Shown here: positions 26,810-60,837 of the stretch, in pieces
Position numbering within the stretch: position 1 is the stretch's first letter
Layout of the letters: every line of letters starts with the position of its first letter
The notes under the pieces: model-generated
What the model saw: the letters and a program-made list of their open reading frames with translations, nothing else
What the model was told of the DNA's origin: nothing
Database searches by the model: none
Virus record (IMG/VR): IMGVR_UViG_3300022602_000034
Direction: 5' to 3' (one strand)
Length of the DNA stretch: 64,000 nt
Source: an uncultured virus (IMG/VR IMGVR_UViG_3300022602_000034)
Taxonomy: Duplodnaviria > Heunggongvirae > Uroviricota > Caudoviricetes
Program-made: the position numbers and the translations under genes

Positions 26810-27634
26810 ATGTCAGATAATCCACTAAAACAATTTTTTCGTAGACCAACCGTTTATTTTAAACTACCTAGCGGGGGCATTGGGTATCCCGAAGGTTCAA
26901 TTGACATTCCGGAGAATGGTGAAATACCAGTATATCCAATGACAGCGATTGATGAAATTACTAGCAAAACACCTGATAGTTTGTTTAACGGTGTAGCGGT
27001 CGTGGAACTTATCAAAAGTTGTATTCCTAACATCAAAGATCCATGGGTCATTTCAAGCGTAGATTTAGATCCTATATTAGTTGCGATTCGTGCTGCTACT
27101 CACGGTGGTGTAATGGAAATTGAAACTAAATGTCCAAGCTGTGATGAAACTTCAAAGTTTGATGTTAATTTAGCAGGTATACTTGCTGGTTTTAACCCAG
27201 CAGATTATAGTGTTCCATTAGAGATTGGTGATGTAAAGATCAAGTTCAAACCAATTCAATATCGTGAAATTAATAATTCTAGTTTACAACAATTTTCAAT
27301 ACAACGTTCATTAAGAGATATTGTAGCAATTACTGATGATGAAGAACGTGACCAACAAAGTGGTAAATTATTAAAAGAGATTTTTACTTTAACAGCTACC
27401 TTAGTTGCAAATAGTATTGAATATATCAAAGTACCATCTGCTACTGTGTTTGAAACTAACTTCATTAAAGAGTTTTTAACTGAATGTGATACAGGAACAT
27501 TTGAAAAGATTAGAGACTACAGCACATCATTAAAACGTAGTACTGAAAACAAACCACTAGACATAACTTGCCCTGAATGCCATCATGAGTTTCAACAAGC
27601 ATTCAATATTAACGCCAGCGATTTTTTCGGATGA
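26810..27634 (+). CDS. gp26: Baseplate hub assembly protein (gp26-like), putative tail assembly chaperone
   Basis: NPLKQFFRRP.VYFKLPSGG, PVYPMTAIDEI, two CxxC motifs (CPSC, CPEC), ends ...SDFFG. AGGAG SD. Confidence 0.75.
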   Translation: MSDNPLKQFFRRPTVYFKLPSGGIGYPEGSIDIPENGEIPVYPMTAIDEITSKTPDSLFNGVAVVELIKSCIPNIKDPWVISSVDLDPILVAIRAATHGGVMEIETKCPSCDETSKFDVNLAGILAGFNPADYSVPLEIGDVKIKFKPIQYREINNSSLQQFSIQRSLRDIVAITDDEERDQQSGKLLKEIFTLTATLVANSIEYIKVPSATVFETNFIKEFLTECDTGTFEKIRDYSTSLKRSTENKPLDITCPECHHEFQQAFNINASDFFG

Positions 27635-27671
27635 GACTCTTAACTCTTGATCCGAAAGAGATTAAGAGTCT
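27622..27671 (+). promoter_or_regulatory. Putative programmed -1 ribosomal frameshift signal
   Basis: In-frame T TTT TTC (27622-27628), 5-nt spacer, hairpin AGACTCTTAACTCTT / AAGAG-A-TTAAGAGTCT (27634-27671). The downstream ORF is in the -1 frame. Confidence 0.65.
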
Positions 27672-27858
27672 TATTGATGATATGGAAAAAGAATGTAACC
27701 GTATTAAGTCGGACTCACTTAAAATGGCATGGTTTATGAGAGGTGGTATTTCCTATGAAGATATACTTAACTTGTCGATCCCTGAGAGACAGGCCATAAG
27801 TAAAATTATTGAAGATAACTTAGAAACAACTAAAAACAGTAGATTGCCATTCTTCTAA
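27631..27858 (+). CDS. gp51-like small protein, or frameshift extension of the gp26-like protein
   Basis: 75 aa, WFMRGGISYEDILNLSIPERQAI. ATGA overlap and no SD. Confidence 0.7.
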   Translation: MRLLTLDPKEIKSLIDDMEKECNRIKSDSLKMAWFMRGGISYEDILNLSIPERQAISKIIEDNLETTKNSRLPFF

Positions 27859-27964
27859 ACCGTAACTGTTCATTTATCACAACTTAGGGTTAACATTAAC
27901 GATGAGCTTTGCTCATCAACCTTCACTTATTTCTTCGCTTCGCTCAGAAATTACGCTCGGTCAT

Positions 27965-28390
27965 TGTTTTGTATTCTATTAGTAATTCTAGTACTAATAT
28001 CTTTAGGGAGAATACACTTGCCGCTTAGAAGCCATGGTAGTGCTGTTCAAGCACTACCATTGGATTAACTTGCCATGCCCGTCTCCCACGTTGTTTATAC
28101 CCGTATATTCTGCCAACTTGATTAAGCAAATATACGCCACCGGTTGCCCTATAAGGTTTATGGTCTGTAGTTGAATATACGCACGGTTTAGTGTTTCATT
28201 CTGCAACGCATGTTCTATACCATCAAAACAAAGTAGGTATAGACTCATTGAGAGTTCGCTGTTTACTCGATTGCTCTCTCGGTGTTCCACACAATCAAAA
28301 GATCATGTGCTCTTCTCCAGAATCTGACGGCTTGTAACTTTCAAAGCAATCTCAAGGAGGACTGACAAACTCAGTCAACTAGTTAAGGGT
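27965..28390 (-). ncRNA. Candidate large structured non-coding RNA, family not recognised
   Basis: Largest non-coding gap in the window, with stems at 27970-28016, 28034-28060, 28102-28136, 28214-28243, 28250-28278, 28288-28309 and 28360-28376, plus a long-range 28020-28029/28323-28331 pairing. Strand is inferred from G-U pairs and upstream transcription. Confidence 0.5.
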
Positions 28391-28398
28391 TCTGTGTA

Positions 28399-28932
28399 TT
28401 AATTATTTTGTTTTTGACTTGGTGTCTGTGAATATGATTTTACTAAATCTGTATTATTTTTGAAAAAGTTAGAATGCTCTACAATGATCCAATCGCCCCA
28501 TGTCTTGCTACTATATAGAATGCATGAATCTGCCTTCCATGTTAATTTGCCTTGAACTGCGACATATTGACCTTTACGATTAAACTTCATAAAAAGAAGA
28601 TTTAAATCGCCTTCGTCTTCTACATCAAGTAGTTGCTCTAGCCACGAATCAAGTTGTTTACACTCCCCAGTAAGGGTCAAGTGCCACGGAAAGTCAGCAT
28701 AGCTTTTCGCTTCAGCATTGAAATGCTTCCAATCATCAGGTGGAATGATATCACCTTTAAATGATTTAACTTGATTCTCACTTAGATATTCTTTTCGGCG
28801 ATTGTTTGTCCCACCGATAAATGCACCGCTGTGTGCAGCTCTAACAAAAGACTCACCATAAGTTTTAGATAAAAAGTTAGCAACCTCACGTTCAAATGCG
28901 TTGCCTTTATTTTTACTTTTTGATCCACTCAT
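28399..28932 (-). CDS. PD-(D/E)XK nuclease, Holliday junction resolvase (Hjc)-like
   Basis: KNKGNAFEREVANFL, SGA, GDII, AEAK motifs. Located downstream of gp46. Confidence 0.75.
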   Translation of the reverse strand: MSGSKSKNKGNAFEREVANFLSKTYGESFVRAAHSGAFIGGTNNRRKEYLSENQVKSFKGDIIPPDDWKHFNAEAKSYADFPWHLTLTGECKQLDSWLEQLLDVEDEGDLNLLFMKFNRKGQYVAVQGKLTWKADSCILYSSKTWGDWIIVEHSNFFKNNTDLVKSYSQTPSQKQNN

Positions 28933-29017: not shown

Positions 29018-30462
29018 TTATTCTATATCGGTTGATGTAGCGTAATTTGTAAAACCGTTCTCTTTTACTACTTTCAGTACGCTAGGAACACGACCTGCAA
29101 GTTCCTCACGATGTGAAACTAGCCAAATACTCTTTTGTCTAGTTCTACTCATGTCTTTTAAGATAGCAATACTGTTTTCAACGCCCATTGTATCAAGTCC
29201 CGAGTCAATTAACTCGTCAATGAACAATGTGTTGATAGGAACATATAAACTTTCCCAAACATCACGGAAAGCGAAACTTAATCCTAAGATCAAACGATTG
29301 CGCTCACCACGACTTAAATTGTCAAAGTCTAACTCACGACCTAATTCAGTAATCTCAACTTGTAAATCATTTTTGAATACAACATTGTGAGGTAAACCGA
29401 TCTTGTCTAGGTAATGAGTCAAACGATTGTTTAGATAACTCAAGTTTTGGTCAATAATCTTTTTACGAACAAAACTATCTTTGCTGGTCAATAAGTCAAG
29501 CAAGAACTTTTGGTGTTCTAGTTTCTTGGTTAACTCATTGATTTTGTTAAAGTCAACTGTTTGTAGTGCATCACTTTCCATTTCAGTGATTTGCTCAGTG
29601 TATGGATCAGTTTCAACTGCTTTGTCTTCTAATTGTTTTTCAACACTTGCTAGTTTGCTGCGATGCTCAACTGCCTTTTCTTCTGTATCATAAATTGTTT
29701 TAGGTTGTGTGCCTAGTACAACTTCAGGATGATCCAACAACTGTTTTGCATAAGGATCAACTTCTTTTTGTTTTTCTAGTATCTTGTTTTGTAAGTTACT
29801 TGCTTCGCTACCGTGACGAATTGCTTCTGCTTCTGTTTTATAGAATGTCTTGGGCTTGTTACCGACAATAATTTCTTTATCGTTCAATTCATTGTATTGA
29901 TTCAATAGTATAGTAGCATGTGACTGTGCATCTTCCAACATCTGTTNNNNNNNNNNNNNNNNNNNNNNNNNNNNNNNNNNNNNNNNNNNNNNNNNNNNNN
30001 NNNNNNNNNNNNNNNNNNNNNNNNNNNNNNNNNNNNNNNNNNNNNNCTCATGTGGATGATACGCTCAATTTCTGCTTGAGTTTCTTTGTTCTCACCTTGT
30101 GCATCATCAGTCTTTTTCAAATTGTTATTGACATAGAACTTAAGAACATTGGGCTTGCGACCACGCTCAATCTTATACTCAATGCCATTCACACTAAACT
30201 CTAATGTAACCATCATGTTTTTAGCATTGGTTCTATTGACTAGGTTATCTTTACGAATGTCATTGATAGGAACGCCAAAAAGGGCGTAACTTAATCCCTG
30301 AATCAATGTTGTCTTACCCGTACCATTACGAGCGCCATCGCCGCCTAAGTCTAAGTTCTCACCTAGAATAAGTGTCAGTTCTTGTTTATTAAAGTCAACT
30401 GCTTGTGTTACTGCACCGATTGATAGAAAGTTTCGTAATGTTATGTTTTTAAGTAGGATCAT
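29018..30462 (-). CDS. gp46: Recombination ATPase gp46 (SbcC/Rad50-like), split in the ORF track by the N gap
   Basis: LRNFLSIG, Walker A GARNGTGKT, signature LSRGERNR, Walker B LFIDELID, H-loop VSHR. Confidence 0.93.
29947..30046. other. Assembly gap (100 N)
   Basis: Run of exactly 100 n inside gp46. Confidence 0.99.
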
Positions 30463-60655: not shown

Positions 60656-60657
60656 GA

Positions 60658-60665
60658 GATAAATA
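60658..60665 (+). promoter_or_regulatory. Late promoter GATAAATA
   Basis: Right after the stop of the giant gene and 7 nt before ATG 60673. Confidence 0.6.
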
Positions 60666-60672
60666 ATAGATT

Positions 60673-60837
60673 ATGAATTCCGAGAACAAAGATACAAATC
60701 AGCAGAAAACAACAAATCCCCCGGTTCGTGAATCGGGAGGTTTTAACGAACTTTCAGGCATTTATTTTAGTTCAAGTATTAAGATATTCGATCCTAATAC
60801 CAATGAAGTATTAGTACACAAACGAGGCGACAATTAA
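60673..60837 (+). CDS. Small 54-aa protein missing from the ORF track
   Basis: MNSENKDTNQQKTTNPPVRESGGFNELSGIYFSSSIKIFDPNTNEVLVHKRGDN. It fills the gap exactly and has a TAATG overlap with the next gene. Confidence 0.7.
   Translation: MNSENKDTNQQKTTNPPVRESGGFNELSGIYFSSSIKIFDPNTNEVLVHKRGDN

What the first reader, a model, noticed from the sequence alone, without database searches (positions are those of the whole stretch)
27965..28398. Unrecognised large structured RNA candidate directly downstream of the PD-(D/E)XK nuclease
Seen: in a genome whose genes abut or overlap, ~540 nt are non-coding, richer in G/C than other spacers and tiled with stems. These include ATGGTAGTGCT/AGCACTACCAT (11 bp, 28034-28060), CGTATATT/AATATACG (28102-28136), TCTATACC/GGTATAGA (28214-28243), GAGAG/CTCTC (28250-28278), CACATGATC/GATTGTGTG (28288-28309, two G-U pairs only on the minus strand), GACTGA/TCAGTC (28360-28376), TGTATTCT/AGAATACA (27970-28016) and a GG-GCAA-CC GNRA loop (~28142-28149). 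A long-range GCCG-containing helix (28020-28029 with 28323-28331) would close a ~310-nt multi-branch domain. It does not match tRNA, tmRNA, group I/II intron or CRISPR patterns by eye. Inference: a co-transcribed ncRNA that could partner the nuclease, act as a ribozyme or serve as a replication primer.
Basis: partly seen in the sequence, partly recalled or inferred. Interest (0 to 1): 0.8.

Follow-up and report, generated by a model that had tools for sequence, protein, structure and literature searches.

The report
New pseudoknotted RNA of giant phages
The 540-base gap behind the nuclease gene holds a gene for a large, intricately folded non-coding RNA that is conserved in well over a hundred uncultured freshwater giant phages and matches no described RNA family, so it is a strong candidate for a new class of functional RNA.

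Summary
The finding holds up. Window 27859-28398 is the largest non-coding gap in the 64 kb. It lies between the PD-(D/E)XK nuclease gene (minus strand) and a convergent 75-aa ORF.

The gap encodes a structured RNA on the minus strand:
- a ~360-nt core (28018-28376);
- a variable linker;
- two conserved 3' hairpins (27901-27962), the last terminator-like.

I fetched 128 distinct homologous cores from IMG/VR contigs of ~360-kb T4-like freshwater phages. On a plain MAFFT alignment of them:
- my 91-pair model (14 helices, two of them pseudoknots) is 92.7% paired, against 32-42% when the partners are slid;
- 64 pairs show compensatory changes.

G-U outnumbers A-C 657:181, which fixes the strand. 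No reading frame is conserved.

Rfam (4227 families) and ARAGORN find nothing. The RNA is single-copy and always syntenic. It is slightly better conserved than the nuclease gene.

Its GNRA loop is wrong and its long-range GCCG helix is unsupported.

Function is unknown. The best reading is a free-standing RNA that acts through a compact tertiary fold, as an RNP or assembly core or as a ribozyme. A role as partner of the nuclease is possible but unsupported. No expression data were available.

The parts
27885..28380 (-). Approximate extent of the whole RNA: core, variable linker and 3' hairpins. Neither end is mapped.
   Evidence: Conservation starts at hairpin H1 and ends after hairpin T in 42 aligned intergenic regions. 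Window-specific constrained fold. A terminator-like site on the - strand at 27918-27900.
28018..28376 (-). Conserved ~360-nt core.
   Evidence: A2 (33 seqs) and A5 (128 distinct seqs). 91-pair model 92.7% paired on A5, against 32-42% when slid.
28360..28376 (-). H1, 5' hairpin (GACUGA/UCAGUC).
   Evidence: 4 of 6 pairs covary on A2 and 5 of 6 on A5. Position 2 is mostly G-U.
28315..28359 (-). H2 domain: CUCC(28356-28359)/GGAG(28315-28318) enclosing H2a/H2b (28326-28351).
   Evidence: H2 is nearly invariant. In H2a/H2b, 3 of 7 pairs covary on A2 and 6 of 7 on A5.
28288..28309 (-). H3 hairpin (CACAUGAUC/GAUUGUGUG); variable in sequence and length.
   Evidence: All 6 pairs covary. L034-L036 carry a ~45-nt insertion here.
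28138..28284 (-). Central domain closed by long-range helix HA: CACCG (28280-28284) with CGGUG (28138-28142).
   Evidence: HA is 100% paired on A2 and 98.1% on A5, with UA 55 / CG 44 at the outer pair. Model R1 of this domain scores 134.6 bits in the window.
28250..28278 (-). Ha hairpin (GAGAG/CUCUC with inner UCG/CGA).
   Evidence: 100% paired; 4 of 5 outer pairs covary on A5.
28210..28248 (-). Hb hairpin (AUG/CAU plus UCUAUACC/GGUAUAGA), with a large loop that carries the 5' strand of PK2.
   Evidence: 99.4% paired; 10 of 11 pairs covary on A5.
28226..28231 (-). PK2, 5' strand (UUGUUU in the Hb loop). It pairs with 28091-28096.
   Evidence: All six window pairs are Watson-Crick. 98.0% paired and 5 of 6 pairs covary on A5. 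192 of 198 cells paired in 33 held-out sequences.
28091..28096 (-). PK2, 3' strand (AAACAA).
   Evidence: As for the 5' strand.
28143..28207 (-). Hc (GUUGC 28203-28207 / GCAAC 28143-28147), enclosing the variable hairpin Hd (28173-28201), the invariant ACUACAG and the 5' strand of PK1.
   Evidence: Hc is 96.2% paired with 4 of 6 pairs covarying. Hd's outer helix covaries, but MAFFT mis-registers it in part of the rows (72.9%).
28162..28164 (-). PK1, 5' strand (ACC; UCCC in most relatives). It pairs with 28099-28101 (GGU).
   Evidence: 94.9% paired and 3 of 4 pairs covary on A5. 119 of 122 cells paired in held-out sequences. It crosses HA and Hc, so it is a pseudoknot.
28099..28101 (-). PK1, 3' strand.
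28102..28136 (-). He hairpin (CGUAUAUU/AAUAUACG with an inner helix).
   Evidence: 9 of 11 pairs covary on A5.
28064..28090 (-). Nearly invariant unpaired stretch (consensus ...GGAUGACGGGCAUGGCAAG).
   Evidence: Conservation lines of A2 and A5. No covarying partner was found.
28032..28063 (-). Hf, a long hairpin with an almost invariant stem (GGUAGUGC/GCACUACC).
   Evidence: 94.9% paired. 5 of 11 pairs never vary; there are a few G-U and GC/UA exchanges.
28018..28031 (-). Conserved 3' tail of the core (CUUCUAAGCGGCAA).
27963..28017 (-). Hypervariable A+U-rich linker.
   Evidence: It cannot be aligned among relatives. No significant match elsewhere in the window.
27918..27962 (-). Hairpin X: a long hairpin whose tip is GAGCGAAGCGA (tandem G-A pairs plus a GC/GAA/GC mini-hairpin).
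   Evidence: Seen in the A1 alignment with stem exchanges such as UUCU/AGAA, UACU/AGUA, GAAC/GUUC. The same fold is predicted in most relatives.
27901..27917 (-). Hairpin T (GAUGAGC-AAA-GCUCAUC; GAA triloop in most relatives). Likely terminator, shared with the convergent gene.
   Evidence: Terminator-like site on the - strand. Stem exchanges in relatives include GAUGACC/GGUCAUC, GAAGAAC/GUUCUUC, GUUGUUC/GAACAAC.
28399..28932 (-). Upstream neighbour: 177-aa PD-(D/E)XK nuclease (context).
   Evidence: Pfam PF24608 PDDEXK_15, E 4.7e-23. phrog_244 'RusA-like Holliday junction resolvase', E 4.9e-18.
27631..27858 (+).
   Evidence: No Pfam or PHROG match. Conserved next to the RNA in 69 of 80 RNA-anchored loci.

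Best explanation
The gap holds the gene for a previously undescribed class of large structured non-coding RNA, carried by a clade of uncultured freshwater T4-like giant phages (~360 kb).

Shown:
- It is read from the window's minus strand.
- It is not translated.
- It folds into about 14 helices, two of them pseudoknots. PK2 joins the Hb loop to the strand after He. PK1 crosses helices HA and Hc.
- Long runs of invariant unpaired bases sit at the junctions.

Inferred:
- It is made as the last part of the leftward gp47-gp46-nuclease transcript, or from a promoter of its own just upstream of H1. It ends at the conserved hairpin T.
- It then acts as a free-standing RNA whose function depends on a compact, precisely conserved tertiary fold. 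That would make it the RNA core of a ribonucleoprotein or of a self-assembling RNA particle, or a ribozyme. It would not be an antisense RNA, a simple cis-regulatory hairpin or a guide for the neighbouring nuclease.
For: Conservation. 53 of 61 nuclease-anchored loci match the gap by blastn at 66-76% identity. There are 128 distinct near-full-length cores among 215 nhmmer hits. Core identity to the window has a median of 72.4%, against 68.9% for the nuclease CDS; the core is higher in 27 of 31 comparisons.

Structure:
- RNAalifold: 70 pairs, 37 with compensatory change.
- 91-pair model on MAFFT alignment A2: 95.1% paired against 31-42% slid; 52 pairs with both-side changes against 9-17 slid; 0 of 500 shuffles reach the observed value on any of the five measures.
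- 33 held-out sequences: PK2 192/198 cells paired, PK1 119/122, HA 156/165, Ha 261/264, Hb 351/361.
- Fresh MAFFT alignment of 128 sequences: 92.7% paired against 32-42%; 64 against 27-38 pairs; 1538 against 172-277 cells; score 0.370 against <=0.086.

Strand. G-U/U-G 657 cells against A-C/C-A 181.

Non-coding. The window's 78-aa frame is stopped within 4-59 codons in 64 of 66 sequences. Variability is equal at the three codon positions (0.223/0.226/0.210). No shared ORF appears even with one stop codon recoded.

Copy number. One match in each of 5 of 5 large contigs, two of them rated 100% complete.

3' end. Terminator-like hairpin on the minus strand, conserved with stem exchanges.

Not a known family. 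No Rfam match at the gathering thresholds or at E<=10 in the window, nor at E<=1 in 10 homologous loci. ARAGORN finds nothing.

Complexity. Two pseudoknots, a closed multi-branch domain and invariant junction strands. From general knowledge, this is what ribozymes and RNP or assembly RNAs look like, and simple regulators do not.
Against: - No expression data: neither a transcript nor its ends were observed.
- No catalytic motif, ligand or protein partner is identified, so the 'acts through its fold' step is inference from anatomy alone.
- The window itself lacks the A-rich box (ATAAAAATT plus 5 nt) that precedes H1 in most relatives. That box is not enriched in the window, so an own promoter is unproven.
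- The U-tract after hairpin T is weak.
- The strict adjacency to the nuclease gene is equally compatible with a functional link.
- The almost invariant Hf stem could reflect a constraint other than RNA folding.
- The structure was partly derived from the same family, so the slid-partner controls favour it somewhat. The held-out test mitigates this.
Confidence: 0.65

Rival explanations
1. RNA partner of the adjacent PD-(D/E)XK nuclease. The RNA is co-transcribed with the nuclease gene, binds the protein, and scaffolds, regulates or targets it. The layout is like omega-RNAs, which overlap the 3' end of TnpB genes.
For: - Same strand and directly downstream. In 11 of 33 aligned relatives the nuclease ORF runs 6 nt into hairpin H1.
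- The order nuclease-RNA-75-aa ORF is kept in 69 of 80 RNA-anchored loci. The other 11 are 6 contig-end cuts and 5 chance matches without the RNA.
- A hypervariable segment follows the conserved core, as a guide segment would.
Against: - Adjacency sits inside a conserved gene block (hub genes, nuclease, gp46/47), so it need not mean a functional link.
- The nuclease family PF24608 is found in isolated phages (PA5oct 48% identity, SCTP-2 39%) whose loci give no R1 match. The enzyme therefore does not generally need such an RNA.
- It is a small resolvase-type PD-(D/E)XK protein, not a TnpB/IscB/Cas type. To my knowledge no RNA-guided PD-(D/E)XK enzyme is known.
- The linker has no significant match in the 64-kb window (best E 0.16).
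Confidence: 0.08
2. Cis-acting 3' untranslated element of the nuclease/gp46/gp47 operon. It would protect the mRNA from 3' exonucleases, insulate convergent transcription, or regulate the upstream genes.
For: It lies at the 3' end of a leftward gene run, between convergent units, and ends in a conserved hairpin shared with the opposing gene. The window has no obvious promoter of its own in front of H1.
Against: - About 360 nt with two covarying pseudoknots and long invariant unpaired strands is far more than stabilisers or terminators need.
- It is conserved slightly better than the gene it would serve.
- Ordinary terminators in this window are simple G+C hairpins followed by U-runs.
Confidence: 0.1
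3. A very diverged or degenerate member of a known catalytic or RNP class: a free-standing group-I-like ribozyme, a minimal RNase P RNA (these phages carry large tRNA arrays), or a tmRNA.
For: - The size and pseudoknotted architecture are in the range of these classes.
- PK1 crosses a long-range helix, somewhat as P7 crosses P3 in group I introns (recalled topology).
- The complete relative genome G006 carries 34 tRNA genes.
Against: - No Rfam model reaches even E<=10 over the region, nor E<=1 in 10 homologous loci.
- It interrupts no gene.
- ARAGORN finds no tmRNA here. The relative genome has its own tmRNA about 48 kb away from its copy of this RNA.
- The 5' and 3' ends do not pair as they do in RNase P or tmRNA.
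Confidence: 0.05
4. A DNA-level element, such as a replication origin, a recombination or packaging site, or hairpins formed in single-stranded DNA, rather than an RNA.
For: - It lies beside recombination genes (nuclease, gp46/47).
- The motif GCGAAGC, which I recall as an unusually stable DNA mini-hairpin, occurs twice in the 3' module.
- The Hf stem is almost invariant in sequence.
Against: - Compensatory changes maintain 14 helices, two of them long-range pseudoknots. Protein-binding duplex DNA shows no such pattern.
- The strand asymmetry of wobble pairs (657 against 181) requires one specific single strand.
- There are no repeats or iterons typical of origins.
Confidence: 0.04

Closest known systems
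GOLLD and ROOL RNAs (large 'ornate' RNAs of phages and prophages, function unknown; reported to form RNA-only homo-oligomers by cryo-EM; PMC12286853, abstract seen in search listing)
   Same: Phage-encoded, several hundred nucleotides, many covarying helices with pseudoknots, no known function. Found partly in lake metagenomes. This is the best analogy for what it may work like.
   Different: No Rfam family matches; I take the GOLLD and ROOL models to be among the 4227, from recall. This RNA is smaller (~360-490 nt). It is not next to tRNA genes: 0 tRNAs in the 64-kb window, and in the relative genome G006 the tRNA cluster is more than 90 kb away. I saw no conserved self-complementary loops. 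Oligomerisation is untested.
Group I self-splicing introns of T4-type phages
   Same: Similar size, T4-like host phage, pseudoknotted core with peripheral hairpins of variable length.
   Different: It interrupts no gene and lies between two stop codons. There is no match to the Rfam intron model at E<=10. No P1/internal guide, G-binding site or homing endonuclease was identified. The extra gene found beside the RNA in L126 has an N-terminal GDS motif that I read by eye as a GDSL-type hydrolase; no domain search was run.
Omega/reRNAs of TnpB and IscB (guide RNAs encoded at the end of their nuclease gene)
   Same: The RNA starts at or overlaps the 3' end of a nuclease ORF on the same strand. It has a pseudoknotted scaffold followed by a variable segment.
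   Different: The nuclease is a 177-aa PD-(D/E)XK resolvase-like protein, not a RuvC-type TnpB or IscB. There are no transposon ends. No target match was found for the variable segment. Relatives of the nuclease exist without the RNA.
phi29 packaging RNA (pRNA)
   Same: A phage-encoded structured RNA that works as part of a virion-assembly machine through loop-loop pairing. PK2 here could in principle form between molecules.
   Different: pRNA is much smaller (~170 nt, recalled) and belongs to a different phage group. No Rfam match here. No evidence links this RNA to packaging.
Bacterial and phage tmRNA, and RNase P RNA
   Same: 300-400 nt, multiple pseudoknots. Giant phages are known to carry tmRNA, and the relative genome G006 has one.
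   Different: ARAGORN and the Rfam models find nothing here. There is no tRNA-like end pairing or tag ORF. The relative's tmRNA is a separate gene elsewhere.

Membership tests
Group I intron | Matches the family covariance model | tested here: not met
   cmscan against all 4227 Rfam families. No match at the gathering thresholds in the window. None at E<=10 over 27600-28700. None at E<=1 in 10 homologous loci.
Group I intron | Interrupts a gene, with exons on both sides that join into one frame or RNA | tested here: not met
   It lies between the stop codons of two convergent ORFs. The same arrangement holds in 57 related loci.
Group I intron | P3-P7 pseudoknot with a guanosine-binding site; P1 with a U-G at the splice site | tested here: inconclusive
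   A pseudoknot (PK1) crosses long-range helices, but no G-site or P1 could be recognised. The comparison is by recalled topology only.
RNase P RNA | Matches a bacterial, archaeal or type-T RNase P covariance model (P4 pseudoknot with the conserved regions) | tested here: not met
   No match at E<=10, nor at E<=1 in 10 relatives.
RNase P RNA | Cleaves pre-tRNA 5' leaders | not testable with these tools
   This needs an in-vitro assay. The context only shows that the relative genome has 34 tRNA genes.
tmRNA | tRNA-like domain plus a tag-peptide reading frame | tested here: not met
   ARAGORN finds 0 genes in the window. In the relative genome G006 it finds a tmRNA at another place (L399:6402-6878), while the copy of this RNA lies at G006:98599-98749.
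GOLLD / ROOL ornate RNAs | Matches the family covariance model | tested here: not met
   No Rfam match. That both families are in Rfam 15 is my recollection.
GOLLD / ROOL ornate RNAs | Phage or prophage origin, large size, many covarying helices | tested here: met
   Found on IMG/VR viral contigs only. 0 of 80 fetched cellular-genome pattern matches carry it, against 74 of 80 viral ones. 91 modelled pairs.
GOLLD / ROOL ornate RNAs | Frequent adjacency to tRNA genes (recalled feature) | tested here: not met
   No tRNA in the 64-kb window. The tRNA cluster in G006 sits at the contig ends, more than 90 kb from the RNA.
GOLLD / ROOL ornate RNAs | Forms homo-oligomeric RNA-only particles | not testable with these tools
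   This needs native gels, SEC-MALS or cryo-EM.
TnpB/IscB omega-RNA type guide RNA | Encoded at or overlapping the end of its nuclease gene, on the same strand | tested here: met
   The nuclease stop lies 6 nt inside H1 to 60 nt before it in 33 aligned members. Synteny in 69 of 80 RNA-anchored loci.
TnpB/IscB omega-RNA type guide RNA | The partner is a RuvC-type (TnpB, IscB, Cas9/12) nuclease | tested here: not met
   The partner candidate is PF24608 PDDEXK_15 / phrog_244.
TnpB/IscB omega-RNA type guide RNA | A variable guide segment complementary to a target | tested here: inconclusive
   A hypervariable linker exists. It has no significant match within the 64-kb window. Host and complete genome were not searchable for it.

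The most novel reading that the evidence does not exclude
The RNA is a new natural ribozyme class, or the catalytic RNA subunit of a new RNP, that giant T4-like phages need during infection. Its two pseudoknots would build an active site from the invariant junction strands (ACUACAG, GGAUGACGGGCAUGGCAA, CCAUGGCUUC). A variant of this reading, also not excluded, is that it programmes or gates the adjacent PD-(D/E)XK resolvase. That would be the first RNA-dependent enzyme of that fold.
Probability: 0.12. Interest if true: 0.95.

Novelty: categorically new. Interest (0 to 1): 0.82.

Why it matters
Large RNAs with this degree of conserved tertiary structure are rare. Almost every class found earlier turned out to be a ribozyme, an RNP core or a self-assembling RNA particle. 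Examples are RNase P, group I and II introns, tmRNA, OLE, GOLLD, ROOL and omega-RNAs.

This one is a core gene of an abundant but uncultured group of freshwater giant phages, and it is slightly better conserved than its protein-coding neighbour. That implies a function the phage cannot do without.

It comes ready for experiment:
- about 360-490 nt, a size suited to cryo-EM;
- at least 128 distinct natural sequences for covariation analysis;
- two testable pseudoknots;
- a defined genomic neighbour to test for binding.

I call it new at the level of RNA class. It matches none of the 4227 Rfam families, and four full-text searches turned up no description. What kind of system it belongs to remains unknown.

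Tried and rejected
- Protein-coding reading. No ORF is shared among 42 distinct gaps, even if TAG, TGA or TAA is read through. The window's 78-aa ORF (28054-28290, minus) has no Pfam or PHROG match. Its frame is broken in 64 of 66 relatives, and there is no codon periodicity. Rejected.
- Known RNA families. Rfam at gathering thresholds and at permissive E-values and ARAGORN: nothing.
- DNA similarity to 50,697 GenBank phage records: no match.
- Nearest isolated phages by the nuclease protein (PA5oct group 48%, SCTP-2 39%). Their loci give no significant R1 match. The best hit, E 0.1, lies inside the baseplate-hub gene.
- Own assembly: not held. The nearest held record G001 lacks the region.
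- Expression: no RNA holder listed. The 24 listed runs are all DNA.
I modelled the 150-position central domain instead (R1; R2).
- T4 late-promoter consensus TATAAATA (recalled): 1 match in the window against 9.4 expected. The A-rich box seen before H1 in relatives, ATAAAAATT, has 3 matches against 3.1 expected. I make no promoter claim.
- Guide-like complementarity of the variable linker: best in-window match E 0.16.
- Pattern scan of cellular genomes with a 15-mer: at least 120 matches. 0 of the 80 fetched carry the RNA, so they are chance matches.
- More diverged clades (nuclease about 50% identical, e.g. L053 and L072-L090). They keep a 374-653-nt non-coding slot at the same place and the two 3' hairpins. 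R1 misses them. R2 gives only weak syntenic hits: 53 bits for L091/92, 20 for L096/99, 19 for L088, 15 for L078. Whether they hold a diverged homologue or a different RNA is left open.
- Further helices among the invariant strands: none with covariation.
- Literature: four full-text searches, passages of PMC2864571 and of preprint 10.64898/2026.10.21.760802. Nothing describes this RNA. No supplementary files were consulted; candidate-motif lists in supplements of RNA-discovery papers could in principle hold it.
Full report
WHAT IS THERE

The window is part of a T4-like phage. On the + strand lie a baseplate-hub gene (26810-27634; Pfam T4_baseplate, E 8.3e-20) and an overlapping 75-aa ORF (27631-27858). 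On the - strand lie a 177-aa PD-(D/E)XK nuclease (28399-28932; PF24608, E 4.7e-23; phrog_244 'RusA-like Holliday junction resolvase') and SbcC/SbcD-like gp46/gp47 genes.

The 540 bases 27859-28398 therefore sit between two convergent stop codons. They form the largest non-coding gap of the 64-kb window; the next largest is 181 nt. G+C is 0.41-0.435, against about 0.29-0.37 beside it. Both strands fold better than all 100 shuffles (z -2.94 and -3.17). Rfam finds no family at its gathering thresholds in the whole window. At E<=10 over 27600-28700 it lists only five chance-level rows, the best 17.3 bits against a threshold of 91. ARAGORN finds no tRNA or tmRNA.

RELATIVES

There is no DNA match among 50,697 GenBank phage records. 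The nuclease protein, however, retrieved 61 IMG/VR loci.

- In the 57 loci where both flanking genes could be found, the gap between nuclease and 75-aa ORF is always present and 476-668 nt long.
- 53 of the 61 loci match the window's gap by blastn at 66-76% identity.
- The 42 distinct gaps share no ORF, even with TAG, TGA or TAA read through.
- The window's 78-aa ORF frame is closed within 4-59 codons in 64 of 66 aligned sequences. Variability is the same at the three codon positions (0.223/0.226/0.210).

So the conservation is not due to coding. It is also high. Core identity to the window has a median of 72.4%, against 68.9% for the nuclease CDS, and is higher in 27 of 31 comparisons.

STRUCTURE AND STRAND

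Alignment of the gaps (A1) shows three parts:
- a sharply conserved core, corresponding to window 28018-28376;
- a hypervariable A+U-rich linker;
- two conserved hairpins.

RNAalifold on 33 cores (A2) gave 70 pairs, 37 of them with compensatory changes. A scan for covarying column pairs added two pseudoknots and several helices that MAFFT had mis-registered. The resulting model has 91 pairs.

Nested helices:
- H1;
- H2 with H2a/H2b;
- H3;
- a long-range helix HA (CACCG/CGGUG) closing a domain that contains Ha, Hb and Hc/Hd;
- He;
- the long hairpin Hf.

Pseudoknots:
- PK2 pairs six bases of the Hb loop with the strand that follows He.
- PK1 pairs UCCC, just after the invariant ACUACAG, with GGGA, just after He. 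It thereby crosses HA and Hc.

Results on A2, a plain MAFFT alignment:
- 95.1% of cells form standard pairs, against 31-42% when the partners are slid by 1-3 columns;
- 52 pairs show changes on both sides, against 9-17 when slid;
- the covariation score is 0.346, against <=0.063;
- 0 of 500 shuffles reach the observed value on any of the five measures.

Because I derived the model from these sequences, I tested it on 33 further distinct sequences added later. Paired cells were PK2 192/198, PK1 119/122, HA 156/165, Ha 261/264, Hb 351/361, Hc 184/198 and H2 127/128. Values were lower only in the variable hairpins that MAFFT aligns poorly.

Results on a fresh MAFFT alignment of 128 distinct cores (A5; counted):
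- 92.7% paired, against 32-42% slid;
- 64 pairs with both-side changes, against 27-38;
- 1538 cells with both-side changes, against 172-277;
- score 0.370, against <=0.086;
- PK2 is 98.0% paired with 5 of 6 pairs covarying (for example UA 70 / CG 55);
- PK1 is 94.9% paired with 3 of 4 pairs covarying.

Wobble pairs fix the strand. There are 657 G-U/U-G cells against 181 A-C/C-A cells, so the model is 92.7% canonical on the window's minus strand and 88.3% on the plus strand. Several positions are predominantly G-U.

In the window itself all helices can form. PK2 there is UUGUUU/AAACAA, a fully compensated version of the consensus CUAUCU/AGAUAG.

THE 3' MODULE

After the linker come hairpin X (27918-27962) and hairpin T (27901-27917). 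Hairpin X has the tip GAGCGAAGCGA, and its stem changes by paired exchanges among relatives. Hairpin T has a GAA triloop in most relatives, also with paired stem exchanges. The consensus scan marks T as terminator-like on the minus strand, although its U-run is weak.

The 5' boundary is not mapped. In most relatives an A-rich box (ATAAAAATT plus 5 nt) precedes H1. In 11 of 33 the nuclease ORF runs 6 nt into H1. The window has neither feature, and I make no promoter claim.

DISTRIBUTION AND CONTEXT

A covariance model of the central domain (R1, 150 positions) gave these results:
- One match in each of 54 of 62 sources.
- One match in each of 5 of 5 large contigs, two of them rated 100% complete at 359,563 and 367,104 bp. 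These are giant phages and the RNA is single-copy.
- A second protein-anchored fetch gave matches in 42 of 80 loci, 38 of them above 100 bits.
- A scan anchored on the RNA itself (a 15-mer) gave R1 matches in 74 of 80 fetched viral loci and in 0 of 80 fetched cellular-genome loci.
- In that RNA-anchored set, 69 of 80 loci have the nuclease upstream on the same strand and the 75-aa ORF convergent downstream. Six are cut by contig ends and five are chance matches without the RNA.

Altogether nhmmer finds 215 matches, 191 of them near full-length, giving 128 distinct cores.

The nearest isolated phages by nuclease similarity (PA5oct group 48%, SCTP-2 39%) give no significant match. More diverged uncultured clades keep a non-coding slot of 374-653 nt and the 3' hairpins. 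They give only weak syntenic hits with a broadened model, so their status is open.

The complete relative G006 also encodes 34 tRNAs and a separate tmRNA elsewhere in the genome.

WHAT IT IS AND HOW IT PROBABLY WORKS

Shown: a conserved, untranslated, strand-specific, single-copy RNA gene. It has about 14 helices, two of them pseudoknots, and long invariant unpaired strands at the junctions.

Inferred: it is transcribed at the end of the leftward gp47-gp46-nuclease unit, or from its own start, and stops at hairpin T. It then acts as a folded, free-standing RNA.

This degree of tertiary constraint is typical of ribozymes and of RNP or self-assembling RNAs, and not of antisense RNAs, terminators or mRNA stabilisers. 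I therefore commit to a trans-acting RNA whose function depends on its compact fold (confidence 0.65 for the whole statement; that it is a real structured RNA gene I put above 0.9).

Within that reading, my subjective split is:
- RNP or RNA-assembly core: about 0.4;
- ribozyme: about 0.12;
- anything else, for example a decoy: the rest.

The rivals are a nuclease partner (0.08), a cis-acting 3' element (0.10), a diverged known class (0.05) and a DNA-level element (0.04). They are set out with their tests in the Rival explanations section.

COMPARISON WITH WHAT IS KNOWN

- GOLLD and ROOL. It works most like these phage 'ornate' RNAs, but it matches no Rfam model, is smaller and is not tRNA-linked.
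- Group I intron. Not a member: there is no model match and it interrupts no gene.
- tmRNA and RNase P RNA. Not a member: there is no model match.
- TnpB omega-RNAs. The gene layout resembles them, but the nuclease is of a different fold and its relatives live without the RNA.

Four full-text searches and the two papers opened gave no description of it. I saw no supplements.

Earlier notes of this scan on three related genomes concern a possible -1 frameshift in the neighbouring hub gene, not this RNA.

VERDICT

This is a new RNA class of high interest. The main gaps are expression data and any biochemical function.

Noticed in passing
window 27622-27634: A TTTTTTC run (27622-27628) lies just before the stop of the baseplate-hub gene, where the 75-aa ORF's ATG overlaps it (ATGA). 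Earlier notes of this scan on three related genomes propose a -1 frameshift that fuses the two ORFs. I only saw the run in the sequence.
   Followed up: partly
window about 29940-30045: A run of N (34 X in the translations) interrupts the gp46/SbcC-like gene, which is therefore split into two listed ORFs, 29018-29941 and 29902-30462. It is presumably a masked stretch.
   Followed up: no
G006 (relative, 359,563 bp): L392:347-4590, L409:11233-19066, L399:6402-6878: The complete relative genome carries 34 tRNA genes in one cluster that spans the contig ends, and a 477-nt permuted tmRNA with tag ANDSQFALAA (ARAGORN).
   Followed up: partly
L011, L012, L015, L025, L027, L054: the 17-60 nt between nuclease stop and H1: These relatives carry, after the nuclease stop, a second copy-like stretch (AGCAGACACAAAG[GT]T[CT]GCATAATAT...) that resembles the end of the nuclease coding sequence (CAGACACCA[AC]GTC). 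It looks like a short duplication in front of the RNA.
   Followed up: no
L126:3520-4266 (also L127); L084-L089, L107, L112, L130: In some relatives the slot is over 1 kb long. In L126 a 248-aa gene with an N-terminal GDS motif, which I read by eye as a GDSL-type hydrolase (no domain search run), is inserted between the RNA and the 75-aa ORF. In L108/L109 about 680 nt after the RNA hold no ORF of 50 aa or more.
   Followed up: partly
L034-L036 (H3) and L032/L037 (between H2 and H3): There are insertions of about 20-45 nt at peripheral hairpins while the core is kept. Expansion segments of this kind are typical of structured RNAs.
   Followed up: no
window 60656-60836: This is the second-largest non-coding gap (181 nt). 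It contains a G+C-rich inverted repeat (CCCCCGGTTCGTGAATCGGGAGG). No Rfam match.
   Followed up: no
A2 columns 325 and 386 (window about 28076 and 28024): Two unpaired, distant positions change together from G to U (GACGGGC to GACGGUC, with AAGCGG to AAUCGG) in 7 of 33 sequences. This is not a Watson-Crick pattern. It may be a tertiary contact or shared ancestry.
   Followed up: no
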